Notes under the pieces: model-generated
What the model was told of the DNA's origin: nothing
Databases searched by the model: none
The model's input: only the letters and a program-made list of their open reading frames with translations
Position numbers and translations under genes: made by a program
NCBI RefSeq assembly: GCF_964355755.1
Contig: NC_092676.1
Span: forward strand, 6,425,888-6,489,887
Length of the DNA stretch: 64,000 nt
Source of the DNA: Antedon mediterranea
Lineage: Eukaryota > Animalia > Echinodermata
Direction of reading: 5' to 3'
Shown: positions 591-57,596 of the stretch, piece after piece
Layout of the letters: the number at the start of each line of letters is the position of its first letter
Position numbering within the stretch: the first letter of the stretch is position 1

Positions 591-621
591 ATTAACAAAA
601 ATAGTTAGTTAATTTAAACTT

Positions 622-27903: not shown

Positions 27904-29438
27904 ACTAGACATGTAACTCGTCACTTTGACGAGTTAGTTATCCGCACGACAAACGCCACGTGCACGTCATACGTTAGAATATTGCACACAGAAAAAATTA
28001 TGGCATTATGACCTGATCTGAAGAATATGATATGTTGTTAGTGCTGAATTCTGTCAATTTTGTGTCATATAGTATATACATGCAAACAGTATAATCTGTA
28101 TACATGTTACATACAGTGTAGAATAGGTGAAATTACGGGACCCGCCATTTATTCAAATTTGTAACATGGCGACGGTATCAAGATGAAACACTAAGATAGC
28201 AATTTCGGAAGCAAATTATCTCAGCAACAACATATTAACGTGTAGAAGAAATTTGAATACGTTTAATATTGATGCGCGCTCTTTTAAATATAATGAACTA
28301 TGATGCAAAAGATGAAAATACGACTTTTTTTATTTAACTGGCAATATGATGACGTCACAGCATCTGATTGGCAAAATGTTCACATGATTTCATATCTACA
28401 ATCCAAGAGCTTCCAGAAAATGTTTGAATCGTGATTATCACATTTTATTTTGACGGGCTATTACAGATTAAAATTTACTGTAAAGATGAAATTAATGACC
28501 CACGTAATTAAATTTTTATGCATGATGACGTCATAAAAATTTAAATTTTTTTATCTCATGCGAAAGATAGTTGATTGACCTAGACAATATTAAAATCTCG
28601 GAGAAAAAGAAATACGTATAAGCGTGATGCGCTCCATTGAATGTGATGAGCAATAACGAAAGACAAAAAAATCCTATATTTTACATTCGTGTGGCCATAT
28701 GATGACGTCACAACATCCGTGAGGTAAAAATTCTGCATGAATTCATATCTACAACATATCTGCTTACATATTAAGTTAAAAAAATTAGGGGTAATCGTTG
28801 ATCCTGAGAAGCTATAAAACATTCAAAATAGGCATAATTTTGACAACATTTTGTAACTTTTTCAACTAAAACGCGCGCAAATGGGCTAAATCAACGTGTT
28901 CGTATGACGTAATTTTAATTTGAAATGATGTCAATCTTTTTGAAAATGACTAGGAAAGGCTGGAAAATCACAATTCAAGAGAAAAAAACATGATTTTCAT
29001 GCTCTATGCACACCGTGCGCGTAATATTTTTCGCGCGCGCGGTAATTTTGTACATGCTTAAAATGACATGAAACGCGTAGAAAGTTGATTAGAAATTATT
29101 TTTGCGCATTTTGAAATTTTAAATGCGCGTGCGCGCGTAACTTTGTGTAAAACACGCAATTTTTTTCAAACAGAAAGTTAGCGCATGATATAAATTAAAC
29201 TTTCACAAAGTGTCAATTAAAAATCACTTTTAGTTTTTAATCTATGATCAATCATAAAAAATCATAAAATCGCGCATAAGTCACGTTGCGCAACTCTGAC
29301 GTAATTCAAAAATAGGAGGTGCACAACTTCACGTAAATGCCCACATGTTGTCAAAGTTATAAAATGTTATGTTTACACATTTTAGAGAAACGCTCTACAC
29401 AAAAATAGCGAGAAAGAAAGAAGAATAATACAGAAAAA
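27904..29438 (-). mobile_element. HINE subfamily B1 unit 16 (cap displaced to 36425-36476)
   Basis: Broken at AATACAGAAAAA|ACTAG. Confidence 0.88.
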
Positions 29439-30964
29439 ACTAGACATGTAACTCGTCACTTTGACGAGTTTGGTTATCCGCCGCGCAAGTGGTGCAACAT
29501 TAACATTAAGGGGATAGGTTGAGGACAAAAGGAAGTGTTCACGTTGGCATTATGACCTGAACTGAAGAATATGATATGTTGTTATTGCTGAATTTTATTA
29601 TTTAAATTCATACATAGTATACACAGTATAATCTGTATCCATATCACATACAGTGTAGAATAGGTGAAATTACGGGACCCGCTATTTATTGCAATTTTTA
29701 ACATGTTGGCGGTTTTAAAATGAAACGCGAAGGTAGCAATTCCGAAAGGAAATTATCTCAGCAACAACGTATTAACGTGTAGAAGAAATTTGTATACGTG
29801 AAATATTGATGCGCGCTCTTTTAAATGTAATGAATTATGACGCAAAAGATGAAAATACGATCTTTTTCATTTAACTGGCCATATGATGACGTCACAACAT
29901 CCGATTGGCAACATTTTTACATAATTTCGTATCTACAATCCAATAGCTTCCAGAAAAAGTTTTAATCGTGATTATCACATTTTTTTCTTACGAGCTATAA
30001 CAGATTAAAATTTACTGTAAAGATGAAATTAATGCCACACGTCATTTAAATTTTTAGGCATGATGACGTCAAAAAAATTAAAATATTTTTAACTCATGCG
30101 AAAGAAACTTGATTGACCTAGACAATATCAAAATCGGGGTTAAAATGGAAAACGGATAAGTGGAGATGCGCTCTATTCAATGTGATGAGCTATGACGAAA
30201 GATACAAAAATCCTAAATTTTATGTTCGCGTGGCCATACGATGACGTCACAATGTCCGGTTAGCCATATTAATACTTGATCCGATATCTAAAACTCATCT
30301 ACTTCCAGAATATGTCATCCACAAAAATTTGACCGTCTAGTTTAGAAATTACGACTGTTTAAAAAAAGGCATATTTTAAACGAATTTTTTAACCTTTTCA
30401 TAAAAAACGCGCGCAAATTGTCCAATTGGACGTGCTCGTATGACGTATCTTTAAGTCGAAATTGTTTAAAATTTGGTAAAATTACTAGAAAAAGCTGGAA
30501 AAACATAAATCACGCGAAAAAATACGTTTTCAATGCTACGTGCGCACCGCACACGTAAAAATGTGCGCACGCGTGGGAATTTTTTACATGCTTAAAACGA
30601 CATGAAACGCGTAGAAAGTTGATTATAAATTAATTTTGCGCATTTTGAAATTTTATATGCGCGTGCGCGCGTAACTTTGTGTAAAACACGCAATTTTTTT
30701 TCAACAGAAAGTTAGCGCATGATATAAATTAAACTTTTTCAAAGTTTCAAGTTGAAATGTTATTTGGTTGTCGAGCTATGTTAAATACGACAAAATCGTT
30801 AAATCGCGCGTAAGTCACGTTGCGCAATTGTAAACATCATGAAAAGCTTCGCTGCACATCTTCATGTGCATGACGATATGTTGAGAAAGTTACAAAATGT
30901 TATGTTTGCAAGTTTTCGAGAAAAGCGTTCCACAAAAATCATACAGAAAGAAAGAAGAGAAATA
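29439..30964 (-). mobile_element. HINE subfamily B2 unit 17 (cap displaced to 36358-36424)
   Basis: Broken at GAAGAGAAATA|ACTAG. Confidence 0.88.
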
Positions 30965-32394
30965 ACTAGACATGAAACTCGTCACTTTGACGAGTTAGTT
31001 ATCCGCTCGACAAACGCCACGTGCACGTCATACGTTGGAATGTTGCACACAGAAAAAGATTATGGCATTATGACCTGAACTGAAGAATATGATATGTTGT
31101 TAGTGCTAAATTCTGTCTATTTTGTGTCATATAGTATATACATTTTAAAGTACACAGTATAATCTGTATACACGTAGGCCTAATTTAAATTTTTAGGCAT
31201 GATTATGTCATAAAAATTAAATATTTTTAACACATGCATAAGATAGTTGATTGACCTAGACAATATTAAAATCTCGGAGAAAAGGGAATACAGATAAGCG
31301 TGATGCGCTCCATTTAATGTGATGAGCAATAAACGAAAGAGACAAAAATCATATATTTTACATTCGTGTGGCCATACGATGATGTCACAATGTCCGGTTA
31401 GCCATATTGATTAATGATCCTATATCTACAACTCATCACCTTCCAGAATATGTAAGTAAAAAAAAGTTTACCTCGTAGTTTAGAATCTATGATTGTTTAA
31501 AAAAAGGCATAATTTTGACGAATTTTTGAATTATTTCTTTAAAAACACGCACAAATTGTATAATTCGACGTGCTCGTATGACGTAATTTTAAGTCTAAAT
31601 TGTTTTAAAATTTTATAAAATTACTATAAAAGGCTGGAAAGACATAATTCACGCAAAAAAAGATGTTTTTAGCGCTACGTGCGGACCACGCGCGTAAAAT
31701 TGTTCGCGCGCGTGGGAATTTTTGACATGCTCAAAATGTCATGATCAGCGTAGAAAGTTGATTAGAAATTAATTTTGCGCATTTTAAATTTTAAATGCGC
31801 GTGCGCGCGTAACTTCGTTTAAAAAATGCCATTGTTAGTGCACAAAAAGTTAGCGCAAGATATAAATTAAACTTTTGCTAAGTTTCAACTTACATAGTTA
31901 TATGGTTTTCAATCTATGTTGAATACGGGAATTTCATAAAATCACGCGTAAGTCACGTTACGCATTTCTGACGTCATTCACAATAGTAGGTGCACAACTT
32001 CACGTGAATGCCCATATGTTGACAAAGTTATGAAATGTTATGTTTACACATTTTTTATATAAGCGAGACACAAAAATAGAGGAGAAATGCGCGTGCGCGC
32101 GTAACGTCTTGTAAAACATGGGATTTTTAATCCACAAAAAGTTTGCCTTTGATATGACTTAAATTTTCAGAAAGTGTCAAAATAAAATTATGCTTGGTTT
32201 TTAGCCTATGATCAATCATAAAAAATCATAAAATCGCACGTAAGTCACGTTGCGCAACTCTGACGTCATTCAAAAATAGGAGGTGCACAACTTCACGTAA
32301 ATGCCCATATGTTGACAAAGTTATGAAATGTTATGTTTACAAGTTTTTGAGATACGCGAGACACAAAAATGGAGGAGAAAGAAAGAAGAATAAT
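30965..32394 (-). mobile_element. HINE subfamily B3 unit 18 (no cap; ~400-bp deletion and ~290-bp duplication)
   Basis: subTIR TAGTTATCCGCT; deletion near 31175; AAATGCGCGTGCGCGCGTAAC block at 31793 and again at 32085. Confidence 0.85.
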
Positions 32395-33915
32395 ACTAGA
32401 CATGTAACTCGTCACTTTGACGAGTTAGTTATCCGCACGACAAACGCCACGTGCACGTCATACGTTAGAATATTGCACACAGAAAAAATTATGGCATTAT
32501 GACCTGATCTGAAGAATATGATATGTTGTTAGTGCTGAATTCTGTCAATTTTGTGTCATATAGTATATACATGCAAACAGTATAATCTGTATACATGTTA
32601 CATACAGTGTAGAATAGGTGAAATTACGGGACCCGCCATTTATTCAAATTTGTAACATGGCGACGGTATCAAGATGAAACACTAAGATAGCAATTTTGGA
32701 AGCAAATTATCTCAGCAACAACATATTAACGTGTAGAAGAAATTTGAATACGTTTTATATTGATGCGCGCTCTTTTAAATATAATGAACTATGATGCAAA
32801 AGATGAAAATACGACTTTTTTTATTTAACTTGCAATATGATGACGTCACAGCATCTGATTGGCAAAATGTTCACATGATTTCATATCTACAATCCAAGAG
32901 CTTCCAGAAAATGTTTTAATCGTGATTATCACATTTTATTTTGACGGGCTATTACAGATTAAAATTTACTGTAAAGATGAAATTAATGACCCACGTAATT
33001 AAAATTTTTAGGCATGATGACGTCATAAAAATTAAAATATTTTTATCTCATGCGAAAGATAGTTGATTGACCTAGACAATATTAAAATCTCGGAGAAAAA
33101 GAAATACGTATAAGCGTGATGCGCTCCATTGAATGTGATGAGCAATAACGAAAGACAAAAAAATCCTATATTTTACATTCGTGTGGCCATATGATGACGT
33201 CACAACATCCGTGAGGTAAAAATTCTGCATGAATTCATATCTACAACATATCTGCTTACATATTAAGTTAAAAAAATTAGGGTAATCGTTGATCCTGAGA
33301 AGCTATAAAACATTCAAAATAGGCATAATTTTGACAACATTTTGTAACTTTTTCAACTAAAAAGCGCGCAAATGGGCTAAATCAACGTGTTCGTATGACG
33401 TAATTTTAATTTGAAATGATGTCAATCTTTTTGAAAATGACTAGGAAAGGCTGGAAAATCACAATTCAAGAGAAAAAAACATGATTTTCATGCTCTATGC
33501 GCACCGTGCGCGTAATATTTTTCGCGCGCGCGGTAATTTTGTACATGCTTAAAATGACATGAAACGCGTAGAAAGTTGATTAGAAATTATTTTTGCGCAT
33601 TTTGAAATTTTAAATGCGCGTGCGCGCGTAACTTTGTGTAAAACACGCAATTTTTTTCAAACAGAAAGTTAGCGCATGATATAAATTAAACTTTCACAAA
33701 GTGTCAATTAAAAATCACTTTTAGTTTTTAATCTATGATCAATCATAAAAAATCATAAAATCGCGCGTAAGTCACGTTGCGCAGCTCTGACGTAATTCAA
33801 AAATAGGAGGTGCACAACTTCACGTAAATGCCCACATGTTGTCAAAGTTATAAAATGTTATGTTTACACATTTTAGAGAAACGCTCTACACAAAAATAGC
33901 GAGAAAGAAAGAAGA
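32395..33915 (-). mobile_element. HINE subfamily B1 unit 19 (cap displaced to 36292-36357)
   Basis: Broken at GAAAGAAGA|ACTAG. Confidence 0.88.
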
Positions 33916-35067
33916 ACTAGATTTGAACTCGTCACTACGGACGAGTTAGGTTATCCGCAGCGCAAAGGCCACGTGCACGTCGTACGTTAAAATATTGCGC
34001 GCAGAAAAACGATTAAGTAATTGAAACAATTTCAGCGTGCTCTTTATTTTTCGTCACGTCTGAGTATATACGGTATACACTATATACCGTATACGTACTA
34101 CATACAGTGCAGAATAGGTGAAAATAAGTGACCAAAGTTATTGACGCTTTTGAACATGATGACGTCATCACAATTTTTAAAATGGTGAATCGTGCGAAAG
34201 ATAATTGATAGACCTAGACAACATAAAAAAAATGGGGGGAAATGGAATACAAATAAGTGGAGATGCGCTATATTAAATGTGACGAGCTACGAGGAAAGAG
34301 ACAAAAATCCTATATTTTATATTCGAGTGGCCATATGATGACGTCAAGATGTCCGGTTAGCCATATTGATGCATGATTTGATATCTGCAACTCATCTACT
34401 ACCAGAATATGTAATTACAAAAAAGTTCACCACGTAGTTTAGAATTTATGACTGTTTAAAAAAAGGCATAATTTTGACTAATTTTTGAATTTTTCATCAA
34501 AAATGTGCGTAAATTGTTTAATTCTACGTGCTCGTATGACGTGATTTTAAGTCGAAATTGTTTGAAAGTTGGTAAATTTTCTTAAAAAGACAGGAAAAAC
34601 AAAAATCAAGCAAAAAAATGATGTTTTTGCGCTACGTGCGCACGTGCGCGTAAAAAAATTGCGCAAGCGTGGGAATTTTTCAAATGCTCAAAATGACATG
34701 AAACGCGTAGAAAGTTGATCAGATATTGATTTTTCGCATTTTGAAATTTTAAACGTGCGTGCGCGCGTAACTTTTTGTAAAACATGCCATTTTTAGTCCA
34801 TAGAAAGTTTGCGCATTATATGACTTAAATGTTCACCAAGTTTCAATACAAAATGAATTTTAGTTTTTAATCTATGATCAATCATTGAAATTCGTAAAAT
34901 CGCGCGTAACTTACGCTGCGCGACTCGAAATTTGAAAAAAAAGTTTCTTGCACATCTACAGCTACAGGGCAATCTTATGACAAAGTTATACAATCTTATG
35001 TTGGCTAGAATTAGAGATACGCTGCCCACAAAAAATGGGAGAGAAGTGTGGAAAGAAAGAAATAAAT
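33916..35067 (-). mobile_element. HINE subfamily D unit 20 (short form, no cap)
   Basis: ACTAGATTTG-AACTCGTCactacgGACGAGTT-AGGTTATCCGCA; lacks one ~360-bp internal period. Confidence 0.87.
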
Positions 35068-36291
35068 ACTAGATTTGAACTCGTCACTACGGACGAGTTA
35101 GGTTATCCGCAGTCCTAAAGCCACGTGCACGTCATACGTTGGAATATTGCGCGCAGAAAAACGATTATGCCATTGAAAAAATGTGAGTGCGCTCTCTATT
35201 TTGTGTCACGTCAAAGTGTATACGGTATACACTATATACCGTATACGTACTACATACTGTTCAGAATAGGTGAAAATAAGTGACCAAAGTTATTGACGCT
35301 TTTGGACATGATGACGTCATCACAATTTTTAAAATGGTGAATCGTGCGAAAGATAATTGATAGACCTAGACAATATAAAAAAAATGGGGGGAAATGGAAT
35401 ACAAATAAGTGAAGATGCGCTATATTAAATGTGACAAGCTACGAGGAAAGAGACAAAAATCCTATATTTTATATTCGAGTGGCCATATGATGACGTCACA
35501 ATGTCCGGTTAGCCATATTGATGCATGATTTGATATCTGCAACTCATCTACTACCAGAATATGTAATTATAAAAAAGTTCACCACGTAGTTTAGAATTTA
35601 TGACTGTTTAAAAAAAGGCATAATTTTGACTAATTTTTGAACTTTTTCATCAAAAATGCGCGTAAATTGTTTAATTCTACGTGTTCGTATGACGTGATTT
35701 TAAGTCGAAATTGTTTGAAAGTTGGTAAATTTTCTAAAAAAGACAGGAAAAACAAAAATCAAGCAAAAAAATGATGTTTTTGCGCTACGTGCGCACGTGC
35801 GCGTAAAAAAATTGCGCACGCTTGGGAATTTTTGAAATGCTCAAAATGACATGAAACGCGTAGAAAGTTGATTAGATATTGATTTTTCGCATTTTGAAAT
35901 TTTAAACGCGCGTGCGCGCGTAACTTTTTATAAAACATGCCATTTTTAATCCATAGAAAGTTTGCGCATTATATGACTTAAATGTTCACCAAGTTTCAAT
36001 ACAAAATGAATTTTAGTTTTTAATCTATGATCAATCATTGAAATTCATAAAATCACGCGTAACTTACGCTGCGCAACTCCGAAATTGTCCAAAAGCTTGG
36101 CTGCACATCTACAGCTACAGGTCAATCTTATGACAAAGTTATACAATGTTATATTTGCCAGAATTAGAGATATGCGACCAACAAAATTCGTGGAAAGAAA
36201 GAAGAACAAAGAAAAAGAAAAAGAAAAAAAAAAAAAAAAAAAAAAAGATCCTGACAATAACAAGGGGTTATCCGCCAAGTGCGGATAACCA
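35068..36291 (-). mobile_element. HINE subfamily D unit 21 (complete)
   Basis: D-type 3' end; cap GGTTATCCGCcaagtGCGGATAACCA. Confidence 0.88.
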
Positions 36292-36476
36292 ATAATACAG
36301 AAAAAAATATTGATCCCATACAATAACAAGGAGTTATCCGCCAAGTGCGGATAACTAAAAAGTTGATGTTGATGATTTCGTACAATCACAAGAGGTTATC
36401 CTGCAACTTCGTTGCGGATAACCAAATATTGATCCCATACAATAACAAGGAGTTATCCGCCAAGTGCGGATAACTA
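36292..36476 (-). repeat. Stack 2: three orphan 5' caps (B1, B2, B1)
   Basis: Sequences match the caps of complete units 13 and 14. Confidence 0.92.
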
Positions 36477-37854
36477 AATAGTATGCCTTCTACTGTTCCT
36501 AACTATAGGGGGAGAAGGTTTGAAAATAAAACTAACTTCTTTTAGACCAAATGAGCGAACAACTGTATCCACACAACCTTGCTTTCCAAAAATCACCTCT
36601 TTTATCAACGCATTATTCCTCCTGGTTAGTTATGTCCAATGACATTATTTGTGTGTCCACTTTTGTAACCAGACACGTCAATGGGAATAGGTCCAAAATG
36701 TTGCATGCCACTCAGTCTTTCAAGATGTTTTTCTTACAAATGTTCTTAGTACCCTCATCACTAGGAAGGACATATCCTGACCTGCACAAAAAATATGTAA
36801 TATCTACAAAACAAACATGTAAATACATCACATTAATATTTATGAAAATACACTAATTATTAACCATTTATCAATTTTCAATTGCAGAATTCCCATGTCT
36901 GGATTATTTTGGCTCTAACGGCCGCCCGTAACCTTGGTCATCCGGGGTGTGGTATTTGCTTATTGTAAGCGAGACAATTATATTCATACTACTTTGGCTG
37001 TTCCTGTTAAATAAAGTTTTAATATAAATCTAAGGATTATATCGCAGTCTCCTACTAATATTGGTAAGTAATAGCCAGGTGCATAGTGGGGGTAAGTAAT
37101 ATTTATAGTACAGATCCTATTGAATTTGAATTGAACCTACTACAGCTTCCAGATAATCCACACACGCTTAGGAGAAATCAGGAAATGGCCGACAAGATGC
37201 AGGCCGGACTGACCTACATATTGAGTCAGGCACAAACTGGTAACGCTAGCTAGACGTTCGGGCTATAATATTTGTAAGGTCGAGTCATTTGTGACAACAA
37301 TAAAGACTGAACGCGTGTACCTAAATCAATTTGAGGTATAATTGGGCCCCCAAACGGAAAATAAGGTTGAGCTTTTCAAGTTTGTGATAAGGTATGTATT
37401 CATTTGACATCATCAGTTATCGGGGAAATAGAGAGAAAAAGTGACTCGCCGGCGTATGAAACCGTAGCGGGTGTAAATTCATTACAAACCATTCACGCTA
37501 GCCAATTTCCTATGTATATACACGGGAATCATGGCTTCGCCTTCCCATAACTGTTGTTGTCAATCTCATAAATTGGGTTGTCTTTGTATAGTGACATGTG
37601 AGGTACATTTCCCATAAACACCTGCTGACTTCTCCTAAATTGAATTGGCTTACTATGGCAACTTGGATTTCCGAAGTTCAATATTAATATTATTATTCAC
37701 AGACCGAGAATAAGTCATGGACTTTTCCAAACAGAAATATGTACATGGTGTAGTTATTACCGATGTTACATATGTATGTTCCGCTTAAGACAGATGGTCA
37801 AGGCACCTGTTATACAAAATAAAGACATATTGTTATTAACAATGACAACACTAT

Positions 37855-38441
37855 ATTATTACAGTAACGGACGACGAAGCCCTAACAAAATACAATGCAA
37901 TCCGTGGTAAGGTCGTGCCTCTGCCTACCTAGCTATATAGTAAAGTATACATTACAGGGCTGCTATCTAATATAGGCATATCTAGGAACAGTATATAATT
38001 CGAACCTAATTCAAATGATAACAATAAAGACTGGTGCATTGTATTGCCTATTTCAAATTGTTATGCACTGATGCACCTTACTCAATCAATTTTTTCCTTG
38101 TGTGTGTTTGATTTGTGCAGTGTAAGTACTTTACTTTGATAGTATGGACAGTTCTTAACATACACAATCAACACCGCACAACATGACTTTATATAAGTGG
38201 ACAAAATGACAAAACCCACAGTATCATCATCAACATTATTATTATTGTAGTATTTCATTACAGTAACAGACCAAGCTCTAACAAATAACATAAAAAACCG
38301 TGCTAGGGACATGCCGCGGCTACCTAACCAGATAGTACGGTATACAGTAAACGCCTGATACTTAACATATAAAGGCCTACCTAGGTACAGTGCACATTTA
38401 AAACATGTCGTAATTCAATTTAAATAACAATAAAGACTGGT
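37855..38441. repeat. Diverged ~185-bp direct duplication (37855-38035 / 38255-38441)
   Basis: ATTACAGTAAC...CCGTG...CTACCTA...ATAACAATAAAGACTGGTG occurs twice, ~400 bp apart. Confidence 0.65.
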
Positions 38442-39212
38442 GGTCATAATGTCATAACATATTTCTTTGTGCAATATTCCAACGTACATCGATTATTCTC
38501 TCTTTCGTTATTGTTCATCACATTTAACAGAGCTCATCTTGCTCATACGTATTCCATTTGCGCGAGATTTTAATATTGTCTACGTCATTCAACTATCTCT
38601 CGCATGAGTTAAAAATATTTCTTTTCTTATGACATCATCATGTCTAAAAATGAAAATAACTTGGGTCACTTGTTTTCAAATTTGAAATAACTTTCAATAT
38701 GTTAGCTCGTCAGAATCAAAAGTGGTAATCATCATTAAAACGTTGTTTGAAAGCTATTGGATTGCAGATACGAATTTATGTAATTATTTTGCCTATGAGT
38801 AGTTTATTCATCTTTGTCGTCAAAGTTATACACATTTCAAAGAGCGCTCACAGCGCTTCTTGGTGCCAAATTCTCTTCCAATTCTTATATTTATTTGCTC
38901 AATTCATTGTCTTTCGAAATTGTCATCTTCGAGTTTATTTTGATAATTCTATCATACAAAACAATTAGAACATGACGTGTGTCCCTAATTTCACCAATGC
39001 TACACTGTATATAGATATACAGTATATACTGTACATAACGTATATGGCATATCAGTAGGCACAACTGAGCACTACAAGCGTATAATGGGATGGCATACAT
39101 CTACATTTTCCGATTGTATGTTGACGTACGTGTATATCTAAACATATTAATGTCAATAAAATTAGAAAAATGATCACCTACAATTCGTCAAACTGACGAA
39201 TTAAATTCTAGT
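38440..39212 (+). mobile_element. Degenerate HINE fragment in opposite orientation with an A-type 3' end
   Basis: Ends AAATGATCACCTAC-AATTCGTCAaacTGACGAATT-AAATTCTAGT; the upstream part is the reverse complement of A/B bodies. Confidence 0.85.
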
Positions 39213-41424
39213 TTATCTTCTTATTGGTAAGTGAGATATAAACATTTTACATGTTCTTACCACTTGTGGTTGAAAGTCCATAAAGTATTCAGTGAACTGA
39301 TACTTGCAATAGACTCGTTATTTTTCTTTCAGATTGTATGAAATAGTAATTGATTGACTGCTTGCTGCCTGCTAGCATTACTGCTAAATCAGATGTACAG
39401 TTTGATTTATTTGGAACTATCTAAATAGTGTAAGTAAATGTTGTTTCACCAATTTACAATTACACAGGAATTGAGTGTTTAATTATTTCTATAGACTCAA
39501 TTAGGCATTCAATTCCACTGTGTGAGAAAAAATAGATTGTATTGAATTGGCACTTTACCTAATTATGTTTTGTCATTTTGAGAACATTCCTTACTTATTC
39601 AAATCTTGTTTGAAAAGCGTGTGGTATTGGCAATTTGTAACGCTGCTAGTGCATCGTATTTGGTTATTTTAAATGTGTTCGAACCGATACACCTTATTAT
39701 TATGTTGTTTTCCCCTTGCAGTTGTTTGATTGGTGCAGTGGAATTACTGTATGTTGATAGTACGGTGAGTTTCACAGATATACAGTCAACTTTGCCTAAG
39801 CTGACTTTGAATAAGTCGCAAAAGTCAAATATCTTCAAGGTAGCAATTCCTTCCTATAGTTTACCATGTTGCATTAGTATGATTGGTTTTTATGCATTGT
39901 TTACAAGACGTCAAATGTATTGTCTTTCAGTTTGTTGTATTTCTGACATCTAAACGAGAAGTTTACACCAGTTCAAATCCCGTAAGTGTAAGAATCCAAC
40001 AAATTAGTCGTTCTTCAAACTTCCCTTTATCTACAATTTCTGAAAATTTGTACAAGGAATACATGTTACTGTTAAAATATAACATCAGGTCATATGGCAT
40101 GTTTAAGATAGCAACAGACCAATGTTTCGTACAGTAATTCTCGTCAAACAGCCTCTACTTGACAGGCCTTTTTAATCTTCCTTCTGAGCCTATAAAATAT
40201 ATCAGTTATTTTAAAGTTTCCTTCAGGTTTTTAGTGGCACTTAACAGATCATGATTTAGTAAAAGGCAAATATGATAAATGTACTAAAAGTACTTGTATG
40301 TATAGGACTATTGTAGTATTATAATGTTGCTCTAATGACCTAAATAATGAATAAGATAATACACTCTGGCATTACTGTAATTTTGATACTTCTTATACCA
40401 CGATAACAATTTACGATAAATAGCTAAACATGTTATTTATAGAACACCTCCACATTGTAAATGATGAGGCCTATGGCATGGTACATAAATGTGGCACATA
40501 CAATTTATTGATATTATTGTGCTACTCCATTCCCATCGCGAGACTGGTGGCTTTGTTTTCAACTAATATTATTATTGAGTTTTTTTTCAGTTGCATTTAA
40601 TCATTGGGGATTGTTGACATTATATTTGGCTATTAACTTTGGTTCCGTTAAACCTTACAATTCTGTTGTTTTTCATTTGCAGTTGTTAATGTTTGATTAG
40701 TGTACTTGGCACGACTGTACGTTATTGTGATTACAGTAGAAAGGTACGGTAATATTAGTATGGTTCACATTGTTAGAATATTAGGTACAGATCGTGTATT
40801 GTGTTTAAATAAACGGCCTGCAGCATTTTAAACTTATAAAAAGGAGCGTTTATTAGCGGTGAACTGTACAGTCATACATAGGGCTTTCAAAGCCTAAATA
40901 CCAAGGTGCGTCGCAGAAAGTCACAATCAAACGTCATCATTTCCATACCAAACTACTTACTGCACCTAATTAACCCAACCAGGCCTACTAGATGAGCATT
41001 TCTATTGAATTACTACATCCTATGGTGTATCGACTTGTTTTTCAAGACCACATGACAAAGACTACATCAAAATAAGCGCTCACCGTTATTACCTTATCAC
41101 AGCTGCACAACACCGGGACTTCCTGTCCTGCCTATTATTTGTAAACAGGAGAATCCTATATTTATTAGGTATGCATGGACTGTTATACGCCAATAACATC
41201 AAAAATGGAGGAGGGAAGGTGTGGCGTTTATAAGACCCTTCAGTTTCTTTGGTCATAATGAAAATGGTACTTCAAATTTCATTATCATATTTCAACATTG
41301 TTTTATAAAGGTGGTTTAGATACTGTAGGTGAGGTACATCATTAGGGACTGCTGCATTGTATTTGGCTATGAAAAATTAGTTTGCACGGAAACATCTAAT
41401 TATTCCGTTCTTTTTCCCTTACAG

Positions 41425-41456
41425 GTGTGTGACTCGTGCAACGGAAGTTTGATACG
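41425..41456 (+). other. Candidate 32-nt 5'UTR exon of the RepHel transcript
   Basis: Polypyrimidine acceptor TTCTTTTTCCCTTACAG| and donor |GTAAGT. Confidence 0.4.
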
Positions 41457-42309
41457 GTAAGTGTACGAAATACAGGCAATTTCACCTTTACCTAACTTTG
41501 CTTAAGTCCCATATTTGCAAAGGCCACATTTCTTTCTAATTACCAATTCCTTACTGCAGTTTACCTTTCACAGTATATAATTATCGCCTGTAGGAGGACC
41601 ATGCTTAAAGTAGTTATTAACTAAACTGAATTCAATATTCTAAACCTATGTATAACGTTTGTATCTTGCGAACGGGGACATCAATTTGATTTACTATAAC
41701 AAATAAGCAATAAATATAGAAAAATATCTACGGTATCTATTATACACTGTATACCTTACATTTCAAATTGTCATGATAAAACAATACAATATAAATAATT
41801 GTGTGTTGTGTAATAATAATAAACCTATATGAAATAAATAAAACAAGTCTCAAGTGCTTACCAAAGAGATGTCTGCGTAACAAGTGAAGCTATAGCTATA
41901 GCTCAATTACTGTGATTACTACTGTACTAATAACCTTCTAAGTAACCCATAGTACAACTACCATTTCTATTGGTGGTCAGCCAACTTTAGGCTTCAAAGT
42001 AGCCCTTTTATGTTTACGTGAGCCTAAGCTACCTACACCCACATTAACATAACACATATGGTTGGCCACTTGCCCACTCGACACCCTTCAATTGATCCAA
42101 CCACAAACTACGGCTTGGATTGTCACTTTCACAATGTTAAATAAACCAAATTGATTATTGTTTTCATTTTATTTTCCAGTTTTGAAAACCCGATCTGCCA
42201 AACTTTGGAAGACACAGCACACATAACCACAATTAAAGCCAACTAAATATAGAAAATAAACAAAACCATACATACAAATTAATTACAAGTTAATACAAGT
42301 AAATACAGT

Positions 42310-42620
42310 ACAAGTGAAGACAAAGTGAACAAAGAAAAACTGAACAAAGAAAACTGAACACAGAAAAAGTGAACACAGAAAAAGTGAACATAGAAAAAGT
42401 GAACATAGAAAAAGTGAACATAGAAAAAGTGAACATAGAAAAAGTGAACATAGAAAAGTGAACATAGAAAAGTGAACATAGAAAAGTGACCATAGAAAAG
42501 TGAACATAGAAAAGTGAACATAGAAAAGTGAACATAGAAAAGTGAACATAGAAAAGTGAACATAGAAAAGTGAACATAGAAAAGTGAACATAGAAAAGTG
42601 AACATAGAAAAGTGAACAAA
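42310..42620. repeat. 14/15-bp minisatellite (AAAAGTGAACATAG)n
   Basis: About 20 tandem copies upstream of the ORF. Confidence 0.95.
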
Positions 42621-42629
42621 CTACAGAAA

Positions 42630-42870
42630 GAGTGAGCAAATTTTCCGAACAAGTGAACTAATTTTCCGAACAAGTGAACTAATTTTCCGAACAACTGAAC
42701 TAATTTTCCGAACAAGTGAACTAATTTTCCGAACAAGTGAACTAATTTTCAGAACAAGAGAACTTATTTTTAGAACAGTGAACTAATTTTCCGAACAAGT
42801 GAACTAATTTTTAGAACAGTGAAATAATTTTTAGAACAGCGAACTAATTTTTAGAACAAGTGAACTATCT
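42630..42870. repeat. 20/21-bp minisatellite (AACAAGTGAACTAATTTTCCG)n
   Basis: About 11 tandem copies sharing the AAGTGAAC core with the adjacent array. Confidence 0.93.
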
Positions 42871-42979
42871 TTTGTAGCCATACGTAACGATTTTTTATAG
42901 CATTTTACAGAATAAATAAATTAGTAATTGTTATAGAATTTGACACAAATTTGTGGTCTTGATTATTATACATACAGTA

Positions 42980-51900: not shown

Positions 51901-52138
51901 AGTAAGTACAAAATGTATCATAATGGGCGACTTTAATGAAAATCTTTTCAAACAACCTTCCAAAGTGAATATTTTAATGACAGAGAGTGGTTATCAACAA
52001 CATGTTACAAGTTCTACTACTGAAAGTAATACATTGATTGATCATGTATATAGCAAAGGTCTAGATTCAATGCAGGCACATGTAATTCCAATTTATTATA
52101 GTTACCATGAGGCCATTCAAATTAAATTTGGATTATAA
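42980..52138 (+). CDS. Helentron/Helitron2 RepHel polyprotein (PHD, C76-like DUB, OTU, Zn finger, HUH Rep, Pif1-family helicase, AP endonuclease)
   Basis: Uninterrupted frame (open from 42953, first ATG 42980). Motifs: PHD CGLC..CDCC..H..C..CSMC; GSFNQG..GKQC..FDPH; GDGNCFYRAIS..HFNVV; IRGTPPYW, PTFFLSFS, EFQMRGSPHVH, YVIGYMSK; GGAGTGKS, IIDEISM, GDFYQLPPV, TVHKVQGMT, YVALSRV; HNIQGL, LTETWL, IYRPP, GDFN, IDHVY, SYH. Confidence 0.95.
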   Translation: MDTQLITVVVTMLFLMLLLMMWCLCTNHKDVTSKEYNNDNTPGKVNNSIIYKTEVTDVPDQCCLPTNVKNVSTLNMDEKDTHTDICEFIKKIVDDIVNVSSGTAVASEFKKCGLCNIEYIADENYVSCDCCSKFYHVTCVRQMFEGKLCDSRVIWICSMCGNSNFANNMLGEIGIACHFNRYMILEHDESNAKFEEFTENEQNWKSNQRNVTKTNTNSQCQQTESENSLGREWIKVRSRKNTSNRKQGGKKRGNKNRKKRVINGIIIELGVTYIGKAVNDFYEKRNKKLHENVDREKIPDNSQTILNEKVDVDVHSPTSDASEVTTITNTIQQLSGGGFNTKQPRKKGRFVKRSNKKKSQEDNDNHKMDEDISKSFISDHLGNDDNSKVICNEDNVYKVASDEPKSNSKINQLRLDSSCDVTDHEVLIIDEEQTKTSKETIRENTRPTNNFKQYNMNDDNSVDIKVSTNECKISDDNTKNVASFKQYKSVVNPCNSITNNRTIAQGSFNQGHSRFGYARGKQCVANSLVAIVYSTKRNGNEFYKNDLDTILTLGNELYYYIQKDSTMDEDLLMISELPKKLDMLDSKFLISPKESVFGIIDGSLESMAEYGALSLKQALEQELHQHDACFMNFNRSTFAIIKRVNGFLIFDPHARDCVGCVSEHGKSILIYSTSWQGVYSYCLKLARSMNCNLHETEFELTGVNVQNESMFLCSSSSVTLDDNCELNNSENCDVNAPGTSSQFKCSKTLPNNNIDSTIKDNKHSNKKDDVSTSNGCQTDDEIEIVNVQYGERPDKNFKFVPILEAQRKSMCHKVGINCEHTGRNCGINRTSHIGHPCQIKNITGDGNCFYRAISYIISGTENNHLILRKAIGNHLLETDDLFSSTLSVEYRTVMEYVIKKRVMDNGTWASNTEISAMANLLNTDIYSFNDQLLTWQMFSAKNPGKINEVTTDNGMYILYTRNVHFNVVESVDFNLNYVPETITIVDSDDVDSSSEISVDPSVMKNNLTKYNNTRKRKEISHEILEDAIGPKQKRSKNFEGSCSNKIKTIRDNKTTIERNKRLENKKRMRTTRSNDSTTNVEKHNKAEVQRKKYKNDSVYREEKKRKVKEAQRIKYADDNYKLSKRKENRERQQKAYRCDPNYNLKVRSKMKQNDNIKLDYRTTKKAKSVQYYRLNERFRQNLKEKRKNRYQTDLIFRQNFKQNNKQNMAQKYMNNLQFRQNLIQKLASKYRNNSTFRQNLSQKLAAKYRNNSTFRQNLKRKYRSILKQDLGEKYRIDLKFRQSCKQRFTEKYHSNTTFRQSCKKKFNDKYHSDSKFKTNCNQRFTKKYHGDSLFRKNVVLKNMRHRKIRRAEKRNFEFVLQNFRESTSHGPEYVCCVCFKMLFKNQVVKCTKAKYEYRTCINEKYLHICNNECNNPCQFAKSPRCTLWICFTCHKKLLKGKVPAEANSNNLELQEIPPELKCLNNLEQHLIGLNIPFMKLMNLPKGGQHGIHGPVVCVPSNTIETVKILPRPEADDQLISVKLKRKLSYKGYYKYKFVNTSNVIQALEYLQDHNKWYFDVAIDENWHNYLSKENIESKTTNQQTCVENNEEEEEDRLCGVAFDTSLQPVDRRQNLVDEYFRDIICCAPCENNSPIALLSNENNEAKSFPVLFPTGQPTFHDTRDVKITLGRYLHNRLMHVDNRFAKNTEFIFYAQSIYELQQILSSISIALRKGSSKKDNFSKVTVSDLKNINKIEEILKSDKGYKFLKQIRGTPPYWQATQKDVLAMVRQIGKPTFFLSFSSADLRWKEIMTTLLSQTGDQRNIDDLEWADKCNLLKSNPVTVARMFDKRFHTFLKKVILSETQPIGKVTDYFYRIEFQMRGSPHVHMLVWVENAPVFNEDEDKKVIEFIDKYISCSVPRQFVDSEMNEIVTSVQIHSKRHSKSCKKKGTNCRFNFPRQPSEKTFVMRPTIVDKNNDDDNNDNDNANKQAQELLTSVKNALTNEETYQSAKELFQSLNITQGAYEDANNCITNEEKIVLKRNPEDVWVNQYNPSLLRAWNANMDIQYITSVYACVTYVIGYMSKSEREMGLLLSHAASEVKEGNENARQSLSKLGHVYMNNREVSAQESVYRVCGLRLKECSRKVEFIPVGPNPVRMSLPLSVIKNKVDDNQSAWLPNKLDKYKARPNNSEFNTMCLATFCSYYRMLSTSEMKGNVQRKNVFQLQKKLGFIQKRTRTDNAIIRYPRFPMNTASEKYFMSILQLFLPFRTDKQLKPLKFQTYQEFYELGSVKLYGSKLQKVNVIVDENMERYDKTADAIKHAEGVLAKFGPQEDAWGLLCPESEKERLENPKPNVDVDDEENEFFVPDFGLKKNETSTIECNSSSISRPELNKMIRSLNKQQKQIFYKTRQWCLDKVNGKQPESFYTFITGGAGTGKSHLVNCIYNEATRILGKMLENPDDMSILKLAPTGIAAYNIKGHTIHSALSIPIHISLPYQPLGEEKISALRNQLGQLQIVIIDEISMVNQKLLWYIHGRLRQIKQVRNDSAFGNISIIAVGDFYQLPPVRGTSLYKNTLENSLWVDNFKRVQLDEIMRQKEDKEFAVLLNKLRTKERNDCLSDKDLSVLKSCETGEQCDDAVHIYPCNKQVNEWNKTMLHKTCLDIICIEAEDTVVNSKKQDKHCDKPRKSCQTNLLNYLWIALNARVMLIKNVDVKKGLTNGCMGHVEEIIKPSPNAKPISIKVKFDNKDIGIQAIEMFQESIGKKYSRKQFPLKLAYACTVHKVQGMTMNKALVCLKNTFAPGQAYVALSRVTSISGLTIEHVNSKLIYCDPTIKEYLNKMNSYIQCDKEVNDSGSEFSIMLHNIQGLKQHFADLQCNDLIMNSTTICLTETWLNKDDDFVDLSIEPYKFYHQARYDSYSNKNDYLKNQAHGGVAVYTKNKFSSRLDIGINDIEVISFLITCPISVAVSVIYRPPSYDIKQFCQNLRKLLKKVHKVSTKCIIMGDFNENLFKQPSKVNILMTESGYQQHVTSSTTESNTLIDHVYSKGLDSMQAHVIPIYYSYHEAIQIKFGL

Positions 52139-53859
52139 TCTTTATATTAACTCAGATGTTTAATCTTAATCGGAATTGTTTTAAGGAAGGTTAAACAAAC
52201 TTATAAACAGAACTTTAATAAAGAAAATCATAAAACGAACATAAAATAGAACTGGATAAAAACAAACAAATTTTAAAAAGAACTAAAAAACAATAGCAAT
52301 TCTCTGCAGAAAGAAATACCCACTAAAACTAACATACTGTACGTGACATACAAGAATGTTATATAGGTTACATTTAATTTTTTTGGAATCCCATTTTAAT
52401 AGTACAGTATTATAGTTATTAATTATGTCTATAGTTAGGAAAAGTCTGGATCGAATCCAAACAGACGATATTTATTATAGTTATTATATAAGGTGTTGTT
52501 GTGTTGTTGTAAGGCCATTTCAAATTATATTGGGATTATAATCTTTACATTTATTCCTATGTCCTATTATTATGAAAAATTAAGAAAAAAAAAAAGAATT
52601 TTACAAACAGAACTTAATAAATCTTTCTTCATAGGAGACAAGCATAACTGCCAAAATCTGTATGGAGGAATACATTATTATCAGGTGAGTAAACCCTCAT
52701 GTTAGGGATTATTGGAATTAACGCCTCTATGCAGAGTAGTTTTCTGACTGCTCCGCCACCTTTGATATGAGATCTTTTCATATTTTGTGCGGTCATCTCT
52801 GGAAAAGATCTCGTTCGGAATAGTATTATCTCATTCACATATATATAAAATAATGAATTAAATATGAATTTCAAAAATGCTATGATACACAGATAGTGTG
52901 TATATAACAACCTCATTATCTATTAAATAAATAAGTTAATAAAACTGTTAAAAAAACATTTCATTTGATACGATTAACAATTTGATTAGACATATTTTAA
53001 TGTATACCTTTTTTATGGTACTTGTTTTTCTTTCTATTCAGATAGCATTTATAATAATTCAACACAAGTAGGCTTCTTATGCAAGTGTTACGGAGTGTAA
53101 TGAAATTAAATGGTTTCAAATTGTAATCAATGTTTGTGGTCAAGCAAAATGAGGTCCATTACAAGAATTGAAGACAGTCATAGATATATTTATAAAAGAA
53201 ATAATTACGGACTTCAGAAAAGAACCCTTTGTGCATAATTATGTTGTTATTGATGATGCTACTACCCGTAGAAGTATATTGCAATAGACAACACATTATA
53301 ATTATTGGTGTATTATTTTAATACAAATTGTATAAGTAAGGTCACATGTAGTGCGGCAACTTAAACAATACCGCGTAAAAATACTTTGATTATACGTCCT
53401 ATCATTATTTTTAATAAATGTGTTTATAAATAAATAGTCTTATAATTATTATATTTTAGCAAAAACAAATCTTTCTTTTGTACATATAATTCACTATTTA
53501 ATAGTTTCTTCTTTTATTTCCTCTTTATTTCCTTTTTTGGCTGCTTGTGTATCCTGTTTTTGTATTTATTTATGTTTTAGCTATTTTTTGGTAGTCCAAT
53601 GGCTAGTTTTATGACAGATAGAAGTGTTCACGTAGAGTATTCAATGCCACGTCTTGATGGCGAATTTTGCATAAACCAAAAAATTATCCATGTGAAAAAA
53701 TCAATATAATTGTAGGCCTAATATAATTGTTTATCCATAGACGAATTAATTTGCAAAATATGTGTATGATATGAAAAAAATATACAATTTTTATTATGTA
53801 AACTATTAAATGAAATGAGTTTAATCTACACAGTTTGAATAATTATTAACACACATTGT

Positions 53860-54705
53860 TGAATTGACATTATAATGTTCAAACTTGAAATAGAAACAGG
53901 ATATTAGATAACCAAAATTACAAACCAATCGGAGAATCAAATGGAATATTCTGATTTAAAACATATTAAAATGAAGTCACTCTGATATAACATATAATAT
54001 TTCTAGATGCGCGTTCTTAAATGGAATGAAAATCCGATTTTACTTGACCTGGCCAGATGACGTCACAAATCCAATAGGAAAATGTTTTCATGAATTCATA
54101 TCTACAATTTAACAGCTTCCATATTAAGTTTTATGGCTATCACTTTAAATTTGGAGAGAGTTATGAGAGATGGATGTATATTATAAAGATAAAATAAGTG
54201 ATCCAAGTTGTTCCAATTTTTAGACATGATGACTTTATAAAAAATAAAATATTTTTAAATCAGAAGACAGAAAATTGATCATAATATATACCGTAGTTGA
54301 GCTGAACTCTGTCTATATTTGTGCCATATCCACGTGCATGTACGTTAAAAATTATGCACATAAAAAAATTAGGCTATGTCATTATGACCTGAAGAATATA
54401 AATTCTGTCTATTTTGTGTCTTATAGTATCAGTATACCATATACTCTATACATTATTATACAGTCTAGCATAATTAAAATATTAGTCTCGACTTCAATTC
54501 TTCAATTTTTAATATGATGACCCATCAAAATGAAACAGGAAGATAGCAACTTCGGAAGACAATCAACTGATCACAAACATATTAACATGTTAAAGAATTT
54601 GAATACGTAAAATATAGATGCTCTTTTAAATGAGATGAAGTATGACGCAAAAGATGAAAATACGACTTTTTTTATTCAACTGACCATATGATGACGTCAC
54701 AACAC
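53860..54705 (-). mobile_element. Old degenerate HINE-body fragments downstream of the ORF
   Basis: Diverged matches such as CTGGCCAGATGACGTCACAAATCCAATAGG, CACGTGCATGTACGTT, GACCATATGATGACGTCACAAC; no termini. Confidence 0.7.
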
Positions 54706-56009
54706 GCACGTACACTAAATTAAGTAATTATTGCTAGGTAAATAGGGTCAAAGAATATATATCACAAGAATGAGTATTCCGCGATTTTTGCATGAGAAAT
54801 TTGTAACACAGAGCTCCAGTGAATGAGGCCCGCCCTCATAAGGGTGGATGTATACATACTAAATAAAACTTGATTTAATAGATATTATACATGTCACATT
54901 AAATAGAATTATGATAATAGTTTTTGCAATTGTAAACTATTTTATAATACATATTTATTAACAAACTAGTGTACATTCACTTTTACAGACAATTATTTAC
55001 TAACATGCTAAGTTAGTTCACAAAAAAGGCCTAACACAGCAACACCAAAAATCAACGAATCGTTACTCAGCACGGCCTATTCATTACCATTGCCGTGTAC
55101 TACTCTACGCCCGGTAAATTAAGTATTGTTTTTATGATATAAATTAGTATAAAATACATGTTATTAATAGGACAAAATGATAAATGTCTTTAACATTTAT
55201 TTGTTTTACCAGAAACAAGTTAAATATAGGAATATTATTAAACTATCCTTCGTGAAAACGCGTAAACACCAACACGCCCGGTCACGCTATCGTAGCGCCC
55301 GGTTGATAAAGCAAACTGTTTATACGGCAGTTTTTACTAAATAAATTGCATAAAAATAACAATTAAATATCCAAATAGTATTTAACATGATGTTGGCATC
55401 ATGGATCTATTCTTTAATCCATGTTGGCATGTAGTTGTAGTAGTTTATCCTGAAAATGCTACCGGTGGTCTAGCCTTTGATTATTGAAACCGTCACAAAA
55501 AGTTGTATACATCCCAGATACATCCACACTTATGGCGGCGCCCTACCACATGGACAATATTACTGTTACAGGGAAAATCGCGGATTACTCATTCTTGTGA
55601 TATATATTCCTTGATAGGGTTTATGTTTATGATGACAGGTAGTGTCAGGTTCGGCGAATGTAAAATTCCGTCGACTTCAAGTATAATGTAAATAGATAAA
55701 TGATGAAGGTACAAGTAGGTTAAATTCTCATGAGCCTTTTGTTCATATAAGGTAGAACTTATAATTACAAGATACAACACAATTAAGTAGAAATATATAT
55801 ATATATATATTCACGTCCCACTAGCTTGGAATCAAAACGAAGAGTGCCAGAGGCCTACTAGGTCCCTGGATAAGTTGTTTACCACAATTAAGCGAGTAGT
55901 TGAATTACACGCACAGTAAAATAGCCAATCAGAACCTAGTCTTATTTGGCCTGCTACATTATAGAAATAGGTAGGAAATAAATTATTTGCGCTATACCAT
56001 TACGTCACG

Positions 56010-57477
56010 GTCAGTATAAACAGTTAAATATGTATACATAAATTATTATATACAGTGTAGAATAGGTAAAATTACGGGACCCGCCATTTATTCCAATTTT
56101 TAACATGGCGACGGTAACAAAATGAAACACTAAGTTAGCAATTTCGGAAGGAAATTATATCAGCAACAACATATTAACGTGTAGAAGAAATTTGAATACG
56201 TAAAATATAGATGCGCGCCCTTTTAAATGTGATGAACTTTGGCGTAAAATATGAAAATACGACTTTTTGTATTCAACTGGCCATATGATGACGTCAAAAC
56301 ATCTGATTGGCAAAATGTTTACATGATTTCGTATCTACAATCCAATAGCTTCCAGAAAACGTTTTAATTGTGATTATCACATTTTATTCTTACGAGCTAT
56401 AATATATTTAAATTTAATGTAAAGATGAAATTAATGCCACACGTAATATAAATTTTTAGTTATGATGACGTCATAAAAATTAAATTATTTTTAATTCATG
56501 CGAAAGATAGTTGATTGACCTAGACAATATCACAATCGGGGTGAAAATGGAAAACGGATAAGTGGAGATGCGCTCTATTAAATGTGATGAGCTATGACGA
56601 AAGATACAAAAATCCTATATTTTATATTTGCGTGGCTATACGATGACGTCACAATGTTCGGTTAGCCATATTAATACCTGATCCGATATCTACAACTCAT
56701 CAACTTCCAGAATATATCATCCACAAAAAGTTGACCGTGTAGTTTTGAAATTACGACTGTTTAAAAAAAGGTATACTTTTGACAAATTTTGACGAATTTT
56801 TGAACTTTTCCATCAAAAACACACGTAAATGATCCAATTCGACGTGCTCGTATGACGTAATTTTAAGTCAAAATTATTTAAAAGTTGGTAAAATTACTAG
56901 AAAAGGCTGGAAAAACCTAAATTACTCGAAAAAAATTGTTTTCAACGCTACGTGCGCACCACGCGCGTAAAAATATTCGCGCGCGTGGGAATTTTTTGCA
57001 TGCTCAAAATGACATGAAACGCGTAGAAAGTTGATTAGAAATTGATTTTTTGTATTTTAAAATTTTAAACGCGCGTGCGCGCGTAACTTCGTGTGAAACA
57101 TGCCATTTTTTTTCCACAGTCGGTTAGCGCAGAATATAAATTAAACTTTTGCTAAGTTTCAATTTAAATTGTTATATGGTTTTTGATTAATGTTAAATAC
57201 GCTAAATTCGTTAAAATGCGCGTAAGTCATGTTGCGCAATTCTGACGTCATTCAAAAATAAAAAAGCACAACTTCACGTGAATGCCCATATGTTGACAAA
57301 GTTATGAAATGTTAACTGTACACGTTTTTGAGATATGCTCTGCACAAAAATGACAGAAAGAAAGAAGAATACAGAAAAAAAAAAAAGATGATGAAACAGG
57401 ACAGTTACAAGGAGTTATCCGTGAAAGCGGATGAAACAGGACAGTTACAAGGAGTTATCCGTGAAAGCGGATAACTA
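56010..57477 (-). mobile_element. HINE-type 5' arm (subfamily E/B3) with cap but no adjacent 3' end
   Basis: B-like body from ~56010; cap GAGTTATCCGtgaaagCGGATAACTA with a 40-bp tandem duplication (57390/57430). Confidence 0.85.
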
Positions 57478-57596
57478 AAAAAGATGATGTTGATCTCGTA
57501 CAATCACAAGAGGTTATCCTGCAACTTCGTTGCGGATAACCAAAAATATTGATCCCATACAATAACAAGGAGTTATCCGCCAAGTGCGGATAACTA
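57478..57596 (-). repeat. Stack 3: two orphan 5' caps (B2, B1)
   Basis: Match the caps of complete B2 and B1 units. Confidence 0.92.

What the first reader, a model, noticed from the sequence alone, without database searches (positions are those of the whole stretch)
27904..57477. Putative giant composite Helentron with the transposase gene antisense to its ends
The parse places 27904-57477 inside unit 15. Its right end is cap E (subTIR TAGTTATCCGCT) on a 1.45-kb arm with no adjacent 3' end. No + strand cap or 3' end bracketing the ORF was found. The only compatible 3' end is unit 16's (TAGTTATCCGCA, 11-bp match). Inference: a ~23-kb element (about 30 kb with its inner nest) uses borrowed HINE ends and carries RepHel in reverse orientation. 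It would supply the enzyme locally for the nest.
Basis: inference. Interest (0 to 1): 0.72.

Follow-up and report, generated by a model that had tools for sequence, protein, structure and literature searches.

The report
Backwards-gene Helentron inside HINE nest
An intact rolling-circle transposase gene, most like those of feather stars, sits backwards between the ends of small companion elements nested inside one another, and likely arrived as one 23-kb block; such reversed, chimeric elements are already known.

Summary
The parse mostly holds. Removing 27904-57477 rejoins HINE unit 15 (95.4% to an intact sibling). The block holds an intact + strand Helentron transposase (42980-52138, 3052 aa) with a spliced + strand 5' UTR, while cap E and unit 16's 3' end lie on the - strand.

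Corrections:
- Unit 16 is a complete HINE with its own cap (36424-36477).
- Unit 18's 3' end matches cap E better (13 vs 12 nt) but is nested too deep to be the block's end.
- A + strand 13-bp inverted pair (36496-36508 / 52429-52441, weak hairpin) does bracket the ORF.

Public contigs suggest the co-amplified unit is larger than that pair: ORF-like depth continues to about 54650 in two samples of a related organism, and one contig runs 724 nt leftward past 36476 without cap 16. Likeliest reading: copying began at cap E and ended at the 3' end of an internally inserted HINE (22.6 kb); units 17-21 came later. No second copy linked to cap E was seen. Reversed ORFs and two-cap chimeras are published. 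'Local enzyme supply' is unsupported. Interest 0.33.

The parts
26377..27903 (-). Host HINE unit 15 (B' type): 3' end and arm, the target of the block
   Evidence: Rejoined with 57476-57543 gives 1595 nt, 95.4% to unit 14
27904..29438 (-). HINE unit 16 (B type): 3' terminus, hairpin 27914-27936, 3' subTIR and arm; inferred terminator of the composite
29439..36423 (-). Inner nest, units 17-21 with caps at 36289, 36355, 36422; units 18 and 20 have no cap of their own; inferred to have arrived after the block
   Evidence: unit 17 rejoined 97.6% to unit 14; unit 19 99.3% to unit 13
30965..31010 (-). Unit 18 3' end, best sequence match (13 nt) to cap E
36424..36477 (-). Unit 16's own palindromic 5' cap, internal to the composite
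   Evidence: Unit 16 rejoined is 99.1% to unit 13
36496..36508 (+). Candidate inner 5' subTIR TTCCTAACTATAG in a weak palindrome (-2.2 kcal/mol)
   Evidence: status uncertain
37062..42180 (+). Spliced 5' UTR region: six GT-AG joints 37062>39332, 39429>39722, 39763>39930, 39981>40683, 40741>41423, 41455>42179
   Evidence: Contigs of run X5; splice signals seen in the window. RNA status of X5 is the tool's guess; the transcript may come from another copy
38442..39213 (+). Patchwork of HINE fragments in + orientation inside intron 1, ending in an A-family 3' end (39180-39213)
42276..42867 (+). 14-bp and 21-bp tandem repeats just before the start codon
42980..52138 (+). Intact Helentron RepHel-endonuclease ORF, 3052 aa: PHD-like finger, Herpes_teg_N, OTU, DUF6570, Rep (HUH, Y-x3-Y), PIF1 helicase, EEP endonuclease
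   Evidence: start Met matches Antedon mediterranea homologs
52429..52472 (+). Candidate inner 3' subTIR CTATAGTTAGGAA, weak hairpin (-3.1 kcal/mol) and T run
   Evidence: bridged by a single contig in X1
52512..54704 (+). Downstream interior: 71% copy of the ORF's stop region (52512-52621) and old HINE fragments (54024-54704); ORF-like contig depth in organism B
54748..55614 (.). Inserted MITE-like element with 41-bp terminal inverted repeats (95%) and a TAGGG direct repeat on both sides
   Evidence: very high contig depth
56013..57389 (-). Arm E, 78-86% to other HINE arms, without the usual terminal 170-180 nt; the repeat family probably extends left to about 55833
57390..57477 (-). Cap E with a 40-bp tandem duplication; inferred start of the composite
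57478..57543 (-). Cap of host unit 15

Best explanation
The block holds an intact Helentron (HLE2) transposase gene pointing opposite to the HINE-type ends around it, and it likely moved here in one rolling-circle event that began at cap E and stopped at the 3' end of a HINE (unit 16) inserted inside it earlier. Shown: the ORF and its motifs, the + strand splice joints, the nest parse, unit 16 as a whole HINE, and the clean rejoining of unit 15. Inferred: at a donor site unit 16 inserted at a TT upstream of the gene's first exon; RepHel nicked at cap E, copied 22.6 kb of the - strand through the antisense gene and unit 16's cap, ended at unit 16's subTIR and hairpin (12-nt match), left the original far end behind, and inserted into the T run near unit 15's cap. 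Units 17-21 then piled into unit 16. The enzyme would act in trans, from this or any related copy.
For: Unit 15 rejoins across the whole block and the left junction is exactly unit 16's terminus. In run X5 a 1210-nt contig matches 36476-36961 and carries 724 further letters on the left that are not cap 16, so the sequence exists without unit 16 and goes on (side deduced from the record numbering of - strand contigs). In organism B (X6, X7) contigs at 52774, 53661-54035 and 54597 have depth 326-361 and 88-130, like ORF contigs (315-593, 147-158) and above host-flank contigs (74-142, 17-30), so the amplified unit runs at least 2.1 kb past 52472. Mixed-end mobilisation seems routine here: 6 of 22 - strand 3' ends have no cap of their own, including a B cap closing on unit 18's E-type end. 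Precedent for reversed ORFs and for two-5'-end chimeras.
Against: No listed contig links a second ORF copy to arm E or cap E; in X1 the contigs right of the ORF are at host-flank depth (278, 261, 311 vs 220-284) while the 5' UTR region is about three times that (706-936), so other copies in organism A differ or stop there. A 13-bp + strand inverted pair with a hairpin brackets the gene in canonical geometry. The stretch about 55833-56012 is itself a repeat joined to arm-like sequence at high depth in X6, so arm E may belong to a separate HINE-like family lying next to the gene. One downstream contig pair is shallow (53390-53555: 131 in X6, 44 in X7). The tool warns that contig depth is no copy number, and most rows of its tables were cut.
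Confidence: 0.58

Rival explanations
1. An ordinary + strand Helentron of about 16 kb (36496-52472) with its own 13-bp subTIRs and sense ORF inserted into a larger non-autonomous sequence and is a passenger; the reversal is only apparent, or is at an early stage.
For: Perfect 13-bp inverted pair, left copy starting with TT in a palindrome 19 bp from the junction, right copy 290 bp after the stop, then hairpin and T run; 0.0095 of 2000 shuffles for the pair, hairpin in the best 2.1% of local windows. The whole transcription unit lies between the two. In X1 little besides one host-depth contig covers 52385-52781. The geometry fits Thomas 2014 and Bao and Jurka 2013.
Against: Hairpins are weak (-2.2, -3.1 kcal/mol vs -7.6 to -10.6 for nest termini); the test was chosen after seeing the match. 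X5's contig crosses 36496 and X1's crosses 52472 unbroken; organism B is multi-copy beyond 52472; B's alignment starts at 36523, after the left motif. A copy of the ORF's stop region lies just outside the right motif.
Confidence: 0.24
2. No composite: unit 16 inserted into unit 15 first, then a 3'-truncated E element (or several pieces) inserted at the TT of unit 16's cap, as other units do head to tail.
For: Insertion directly at the previous element's cap is common in this array (for example 9300, 12442, 14020, 21660, 24783). Unit 16 is complete on its own.
Against: In those cases a full 3' end abuts the cap; at 36477 none does. It needs termination at a point with no terminator, from which X5's contig continues for 724 nt.
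Confidence: 0.13
3. Assembly artefact or later recombination between near-identical HINE arms joined unrelated pieces.
For: B units are 99.1-99.9% identical; no raw long reads were available.
Against: All 22 ends and 17 caps fit one last-in-first-out parse with base-level rejoining; X1 contigs match 52095-52780, 54093-54649 and 55588-55862 with 0-2 differences.
Confidence: 0.05

Closest known systems
Helentrons / Helitron2 (HLE2) with OTU and endonuclease, animal clade
   Same: Single RepHel-EN ORF with OTU and DUF6570, Rep motif FYR-IEFQMRGSPHVH, subTIR plus 3' hairpin termini, T-run targets, HINE partners. Closest proteins: Antedon mediterranea 89-91% over aa 1650-3064, sea urchins 59-66%, fish and molluscs 41-50%.
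   Different: ORF antisense to the outermost ends; 5' UTR with six introns; hydrophobic N-terminus shared with only 4 of 120 homologs.
Reversed-ORF elements: Helentron-Da-40, Helitron-1_DR, Helitron-2_CRe, FoHeli4/5 ('HLE2-reverse')
   Same: Transposase gene opposite to the cap-to-hairpin direction.
   Different: There it is a family trait with defined ends; here one copy is seen, its 3' end comes from an internal HINE, and candidate inner ends remain.
Chimeric Helitron with two 5' termini (Chellappan et al. 2016, PMC5148889, Figs 7-8 as described in legends)
   Same: Start at outer 5' end, stop at first 3' end of a nested element; reversal by opposite-strand insertion and loss of inner ends.
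   Different: Their duplicated 5' parts are typically under 200 bp; here about 21 kb with an intact gene lies between the two caps.
End-bypass / composite transposition and clustering of Helitrons
   Same: Capless units and clustering of related insertions.
   Different: Depth and order of this nest: 22 units over 55 kb inserting near one another's caps. My searches listed no description of it in crinoids, but they cover only open-licence papers and not Repbase.

Membership tests
Helentron (HLE2) transposase | Rep (HUH, two tyrosines) fused to PIF1 helicase | tested here: met
   PF14214 E 5e-36, PF05970 E 1e-27; SPHVH 1876, YVIGYMSK 2070, GGAGTGKS 2423, DEISM 2512
Helentron (HLE2) transposase | Diagnostic Rep motif 2 with S (RGSP) and F/Y-x-R before it | tested here: met
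   DYFYRIEFQMRGSPHVH; criterion from PMC4067079 passage
Helentron (HLE2) transposase | C-terminal AP endonuclease; DUF6570 marker | tested here: met
   PF03372 E 5.7e-9, PF20209 E 1.9e-20; markers
Helentron (HLE2) transposase | Placement in the HLE2 clade by phylogeny | not tested
   No tree built; only similarity ranking
Helentron element | Matching subTIRs, 5' one in a palindrome near the terminus | tested here: inconclusive
   Cap E and unit 16's end share 12 nt but unit 16 has its own 14-nt partner cap; a second 13-bp candidate pair lies on the + strand
Helentron element | 3' hairpin after the 3' subTIR | tested here: met
   27914-27936, 10-bp stem; it belongs to unit 16
Helentron element | Insertion in a T run without target duplication | tested here: met
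   Unit 15 rejoins at an A run on the + strand at full length
Helentron element | Ends confirmed by several copies or an empty site | tested here: inconclusive
   No genome held; contigs show extension past 52472 and 36476 but no link to cap E
Reversed-ORF HLE2 family | Antisense ORF in several independent copies with the same ends | not testable with these tools
   Needs an assembly or long reads; all 10 listed runs are contigs
HINE (units of the nest) | Non-coding, palindromic 5' subTIR, 3' subTIR plus hairpin, T-run target | tested here: met
Helitron1 (HLE1) | RGLP motif, 5' TC, no subTIRs, no endonuclease | tested here: not met
   RGSP motif and endonuclease present; subTIRs present

The most novel reading that the evidence does not exclude
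This copy is a reversal caught midway: a sense-strand Helentron whose own 13-bp ends (36496, 52429-52472) are still visible rides backwards inside a HINE-ended shell that now moves it, while related copies in organism B appear to have lost or changed exactly those inner ends. It would be direct genomic evidence for the proposed route to reversed Helentrons, and show that HINEs can replace an autonomous element's ends.
Probability: 0.22. Interest if true: 0.6.

Novelty: new member of a known kind. Interest (0 to 1): 0.33.

Why it matters
For transposon specialists it is a clean worked example of how rolling-circle elements mix ends: a cap from one element and a terminator from another appear to move a 22.6-kb block with an intact gene, and HINEs inserting near one another's caps build 55-kb arrays. 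If the inner ends prove real, it would test the self-insertion model for ORF reversal, which the passages I read present as a proposal. It suggests no new enzyme or mechanism.

Tried and rejected
Whole-genome copy search: no genome held.

Related loci: the C-terminal query found 125 pattern matches, none a relative. The alignment query returned 80 metagenome and 80 viral loci with best segments of only 25-37% identity, mostly helicase-only; I did not examine them for termini.

Earlier findings: 4 look-ups, nothing. No RNA holder is on record among the runs; X5 is a guess.

The 724 letters left of 36476 in X5 could not be read. Low cover in X5 after 52399 and missing cover in X6 over much of 36634-38450 are not counted as evidence.

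Bin arithmetic suggests organism B contigs miss about 110-135 bp of bin 52385-52781. This may be the candidate inner 3' end, but it is indirect and not counted.

ACTAG at 55857 and 55820 were considered as arm E's own 3' end (196 and 233 nt from an arm landmark, vs 189-212 in the units where it was found). Rejected for lack of subTIR and hairpin.

Unit 18 as the block's terminator was rejected because it lies inside unit 17, inside unit 16.

I wanted Thomas 2014 Table S2 (subTIR list) but opened the endonuclease alignment file instead. Table S2 and the figures of all papers were not seen and may hold comparable termini.
Full report
WHAT IS THERE. The window is AT-rich animal DNA with one long ORF, 42944-52138 on the + strand. 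Its product has Herpes_teg_N, OTU, DUF6570, Helitron Rep, PIF1 helicase and EEP endonuclease domains, with catalytic motifs present and the Helentron-type Rep motif. Of 838 proteins at E <= 1e-50, the best are from the feather star Antedon mediterranea (89%, 91%, 75% over aa 1650-3064). Three of the four compared in full begin at the Met at 42980, giving 3052 aa. From 4089 to 59128 lies an array of 1.2-2.1 kb HINE units on the - strand: 22 3' ends (terminus, hairpin, subTIR) and 17 palindromic caps.

THE PARSE. Reading ends and caps last-in-first-out, and rejoining units across their insertions, gives near-perfect copies of uninterrupted siblings: unit 12 99.9%, unit 16 99.1% and unit 19 99.3% to unit 13; unit 17 97.6% and unit 15 95.4% to unit 14. 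It consists of unit 16 (with its own cap at 36424-36477 and units 17-21 nested in it), 19.5 kb of interior, arm E from about 56013, and cap E. Six 3' ends (units 1, 2, 4, 8, 18, 20) have no cap of their own; the four A-type ones share one junction. Cap E is the one cap with no adjacent end. It shares 13 nt with unit 18's end and 12 nt with B-type ends such as unit 16's.

TRANSCRIPTION. Contigs of run X5 show six joints, all GT-AG on the + strand, from 37062 to 42179. The gene family is thus likely spliced and transcribed rightwards from near 37000. Caveats: the tool only guesses that X5 is RNA, the transcript may come from another copy, and the link from 42180 to the start codon was outside the stretch laid.

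ARE THERE + STRAND ENDS? A scan for 12-mer inverted matches (at least 4 G/C) between 36476-42270 and 52139-56020 gave three hits. Two lie in HINE fragments. The third extends to a perfect 13-bp pair at 36496-36508 and 52429-52441, the right copy followed by a hairpin and T run. This is the geometry described for Helentrons. Such a pair is common over regions this large (0.77 of 300 shuffles) and uncommon within 60 bp of the junction (0.0095 of 2000); that test was framed after the fact. The hairpins are weak.

OTHER COPIES. No genome is held, so I laid contigs of 5 of the 10 listed runs. Left side: X1 and X2 (one sample) cover 36623-42270 evenly, at about three times host-flank contig depth in X1 (706-936 vs 220-284). 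One X5 contig matches 36476-36961 and has 724 more letters on the left that are not cap 16; I deduced the side from how - strand records are numbered. So the interior exists without unit 16 and continues, crossing 36496. Right side: in organism B (X6, X7; two samples, one study) contigs at 52774, 53661-54035 and 54597 are about as deep as ORF contigs and several times deeper than host flank. The amplified unit there passes 52472 by at least 2.1 kb. Against my reading: in X1 the right-hand contigs are at host-flank depth, a second variant shows only over parts of 52782-54210, and no listed contig ties a second copy to cap E. About 55833-56012 is itself repeated and joined to arm-like sequence in X6. 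The tool warns that depth is no copy number, and most rows of its tables were cut.

HOW IT LIKELY AROSE. Helitrons copy one strand from a 5' end to a hairpin terminator and can use another element's terminator (review passage). The simplest history is: unit 16 inserted at a TT upstream of exon 1 in a donor element; copying from cap E ran 22.6 kb and ended at unit 16's 3' end; the product inserted in the T run near unit 15's cap; units 17-21 came later, since otherwise five terminators, one a better match, would have been passed. These steps are inferred; I put them at 0.58. The main rival (0.24) is a 16-kb sense-strand Helentron riding as a passenger. It is compatible with the composite and would change only which ends count as the gene's own. 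Sequential insertion (0.13) and artefact (0.05) fit less well.

LOCAL ENZYME SUPPLY. Not supported. A spliced eukaryotic transposase is made in the cytoplasm and acts in trans (my knowledge). Units 15 and 12 predate the block, A-family ends use a different subTIR, and summed depth over the ORF in X1 is 8,000-16,000 against about 250-350 in host flank, pointing to many related genes.

COMPARISON WITH THE LITERATURE. Reversed ORFs are reported for Helentron-Da-40 (PMC4067079: passages, section 8 and one supplementary file), Helitron-1_DR and Helitron-2_CRe (PMC3627910: passages) and FoHeli4/5 (PMC5148889: passages and section 16). The last proposes both the two-5'-end chimera and reversal by opposite-strand insertion. 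HELIANO names an 'HLE2-reverse' form (PMC11417382: passages and section 24). Helitrons up to 39 kb are known in maize (PMC6431247: passages). Oyster HINEs have like termini (PMC7492417: passages). Five literature searches listed no account of this crinoid element; they do not cover subscription journals or Repbase.

VERDICT. A real, intact Helentron in a probable chimeric, reversed configuration: a new member of a known kind, interest 0.33. The boldest open reading, a reversal caught with inner ends still visible, has probability about 0.22 and needs an assembly to test.

Noticed in passing
window 42980-43060: The transposase starts with a strongly hydrophobic 19-residue stretch (mean hydropathy 2.66) like a signal or membrane anchor; 4 of 120 homologs have one, all from Antedon mediterranea. 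Odd for a nuclear enzyme; unexplained.
   Followed up: partly
window 4089-59128: The whole array is an ordered 55-kb nest of 22 HINE units of several subfamilies that insert at the T run some 50-70 bp inside another's cap or directly at the cap; this is the more striking feature of the window.
   Followed up: partly
window 4089-18635: Four A-type units (1, 2, 4, 8) lack caps and share one junction with the next unit; the dimers are 87-90% alike, suggesting a propagated dimer family.
   Followed up: partly
window 54748-55614: High-copy MITE-like element, 41-bp inverted ends, TAGGG on both sides, internal hairpin at 55264-55303; superfamily not determined.
   Followed up: no
window 38031-38260, 39570-39884, 41282-41582: Three diverged (64-68%) copies of an exon-with-splice-sites module in the 5' UTR region; two are used in X5 joints.
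   Followed up: partly
window 60722-61515: Another very high-depth repeat in the right flank in all four runs laid, with no long match to the nest in the window self-comparison.
   Followed up: no
window 46465-46990: 54-bp (18-residue) coding tandem repeat, basic and aromatic, between OTU and DUF6570.
   Followed up: no
window 51687-51691: Organism B copies carry 9 extra letters here, keeping the frame of the endonuclease domain.
   Followed up: no
window 88-780, 3153-3592, 62302-62435: Minisatellites of 20, 27, 134 and 21 bp in the flanks.
   Followed up: no
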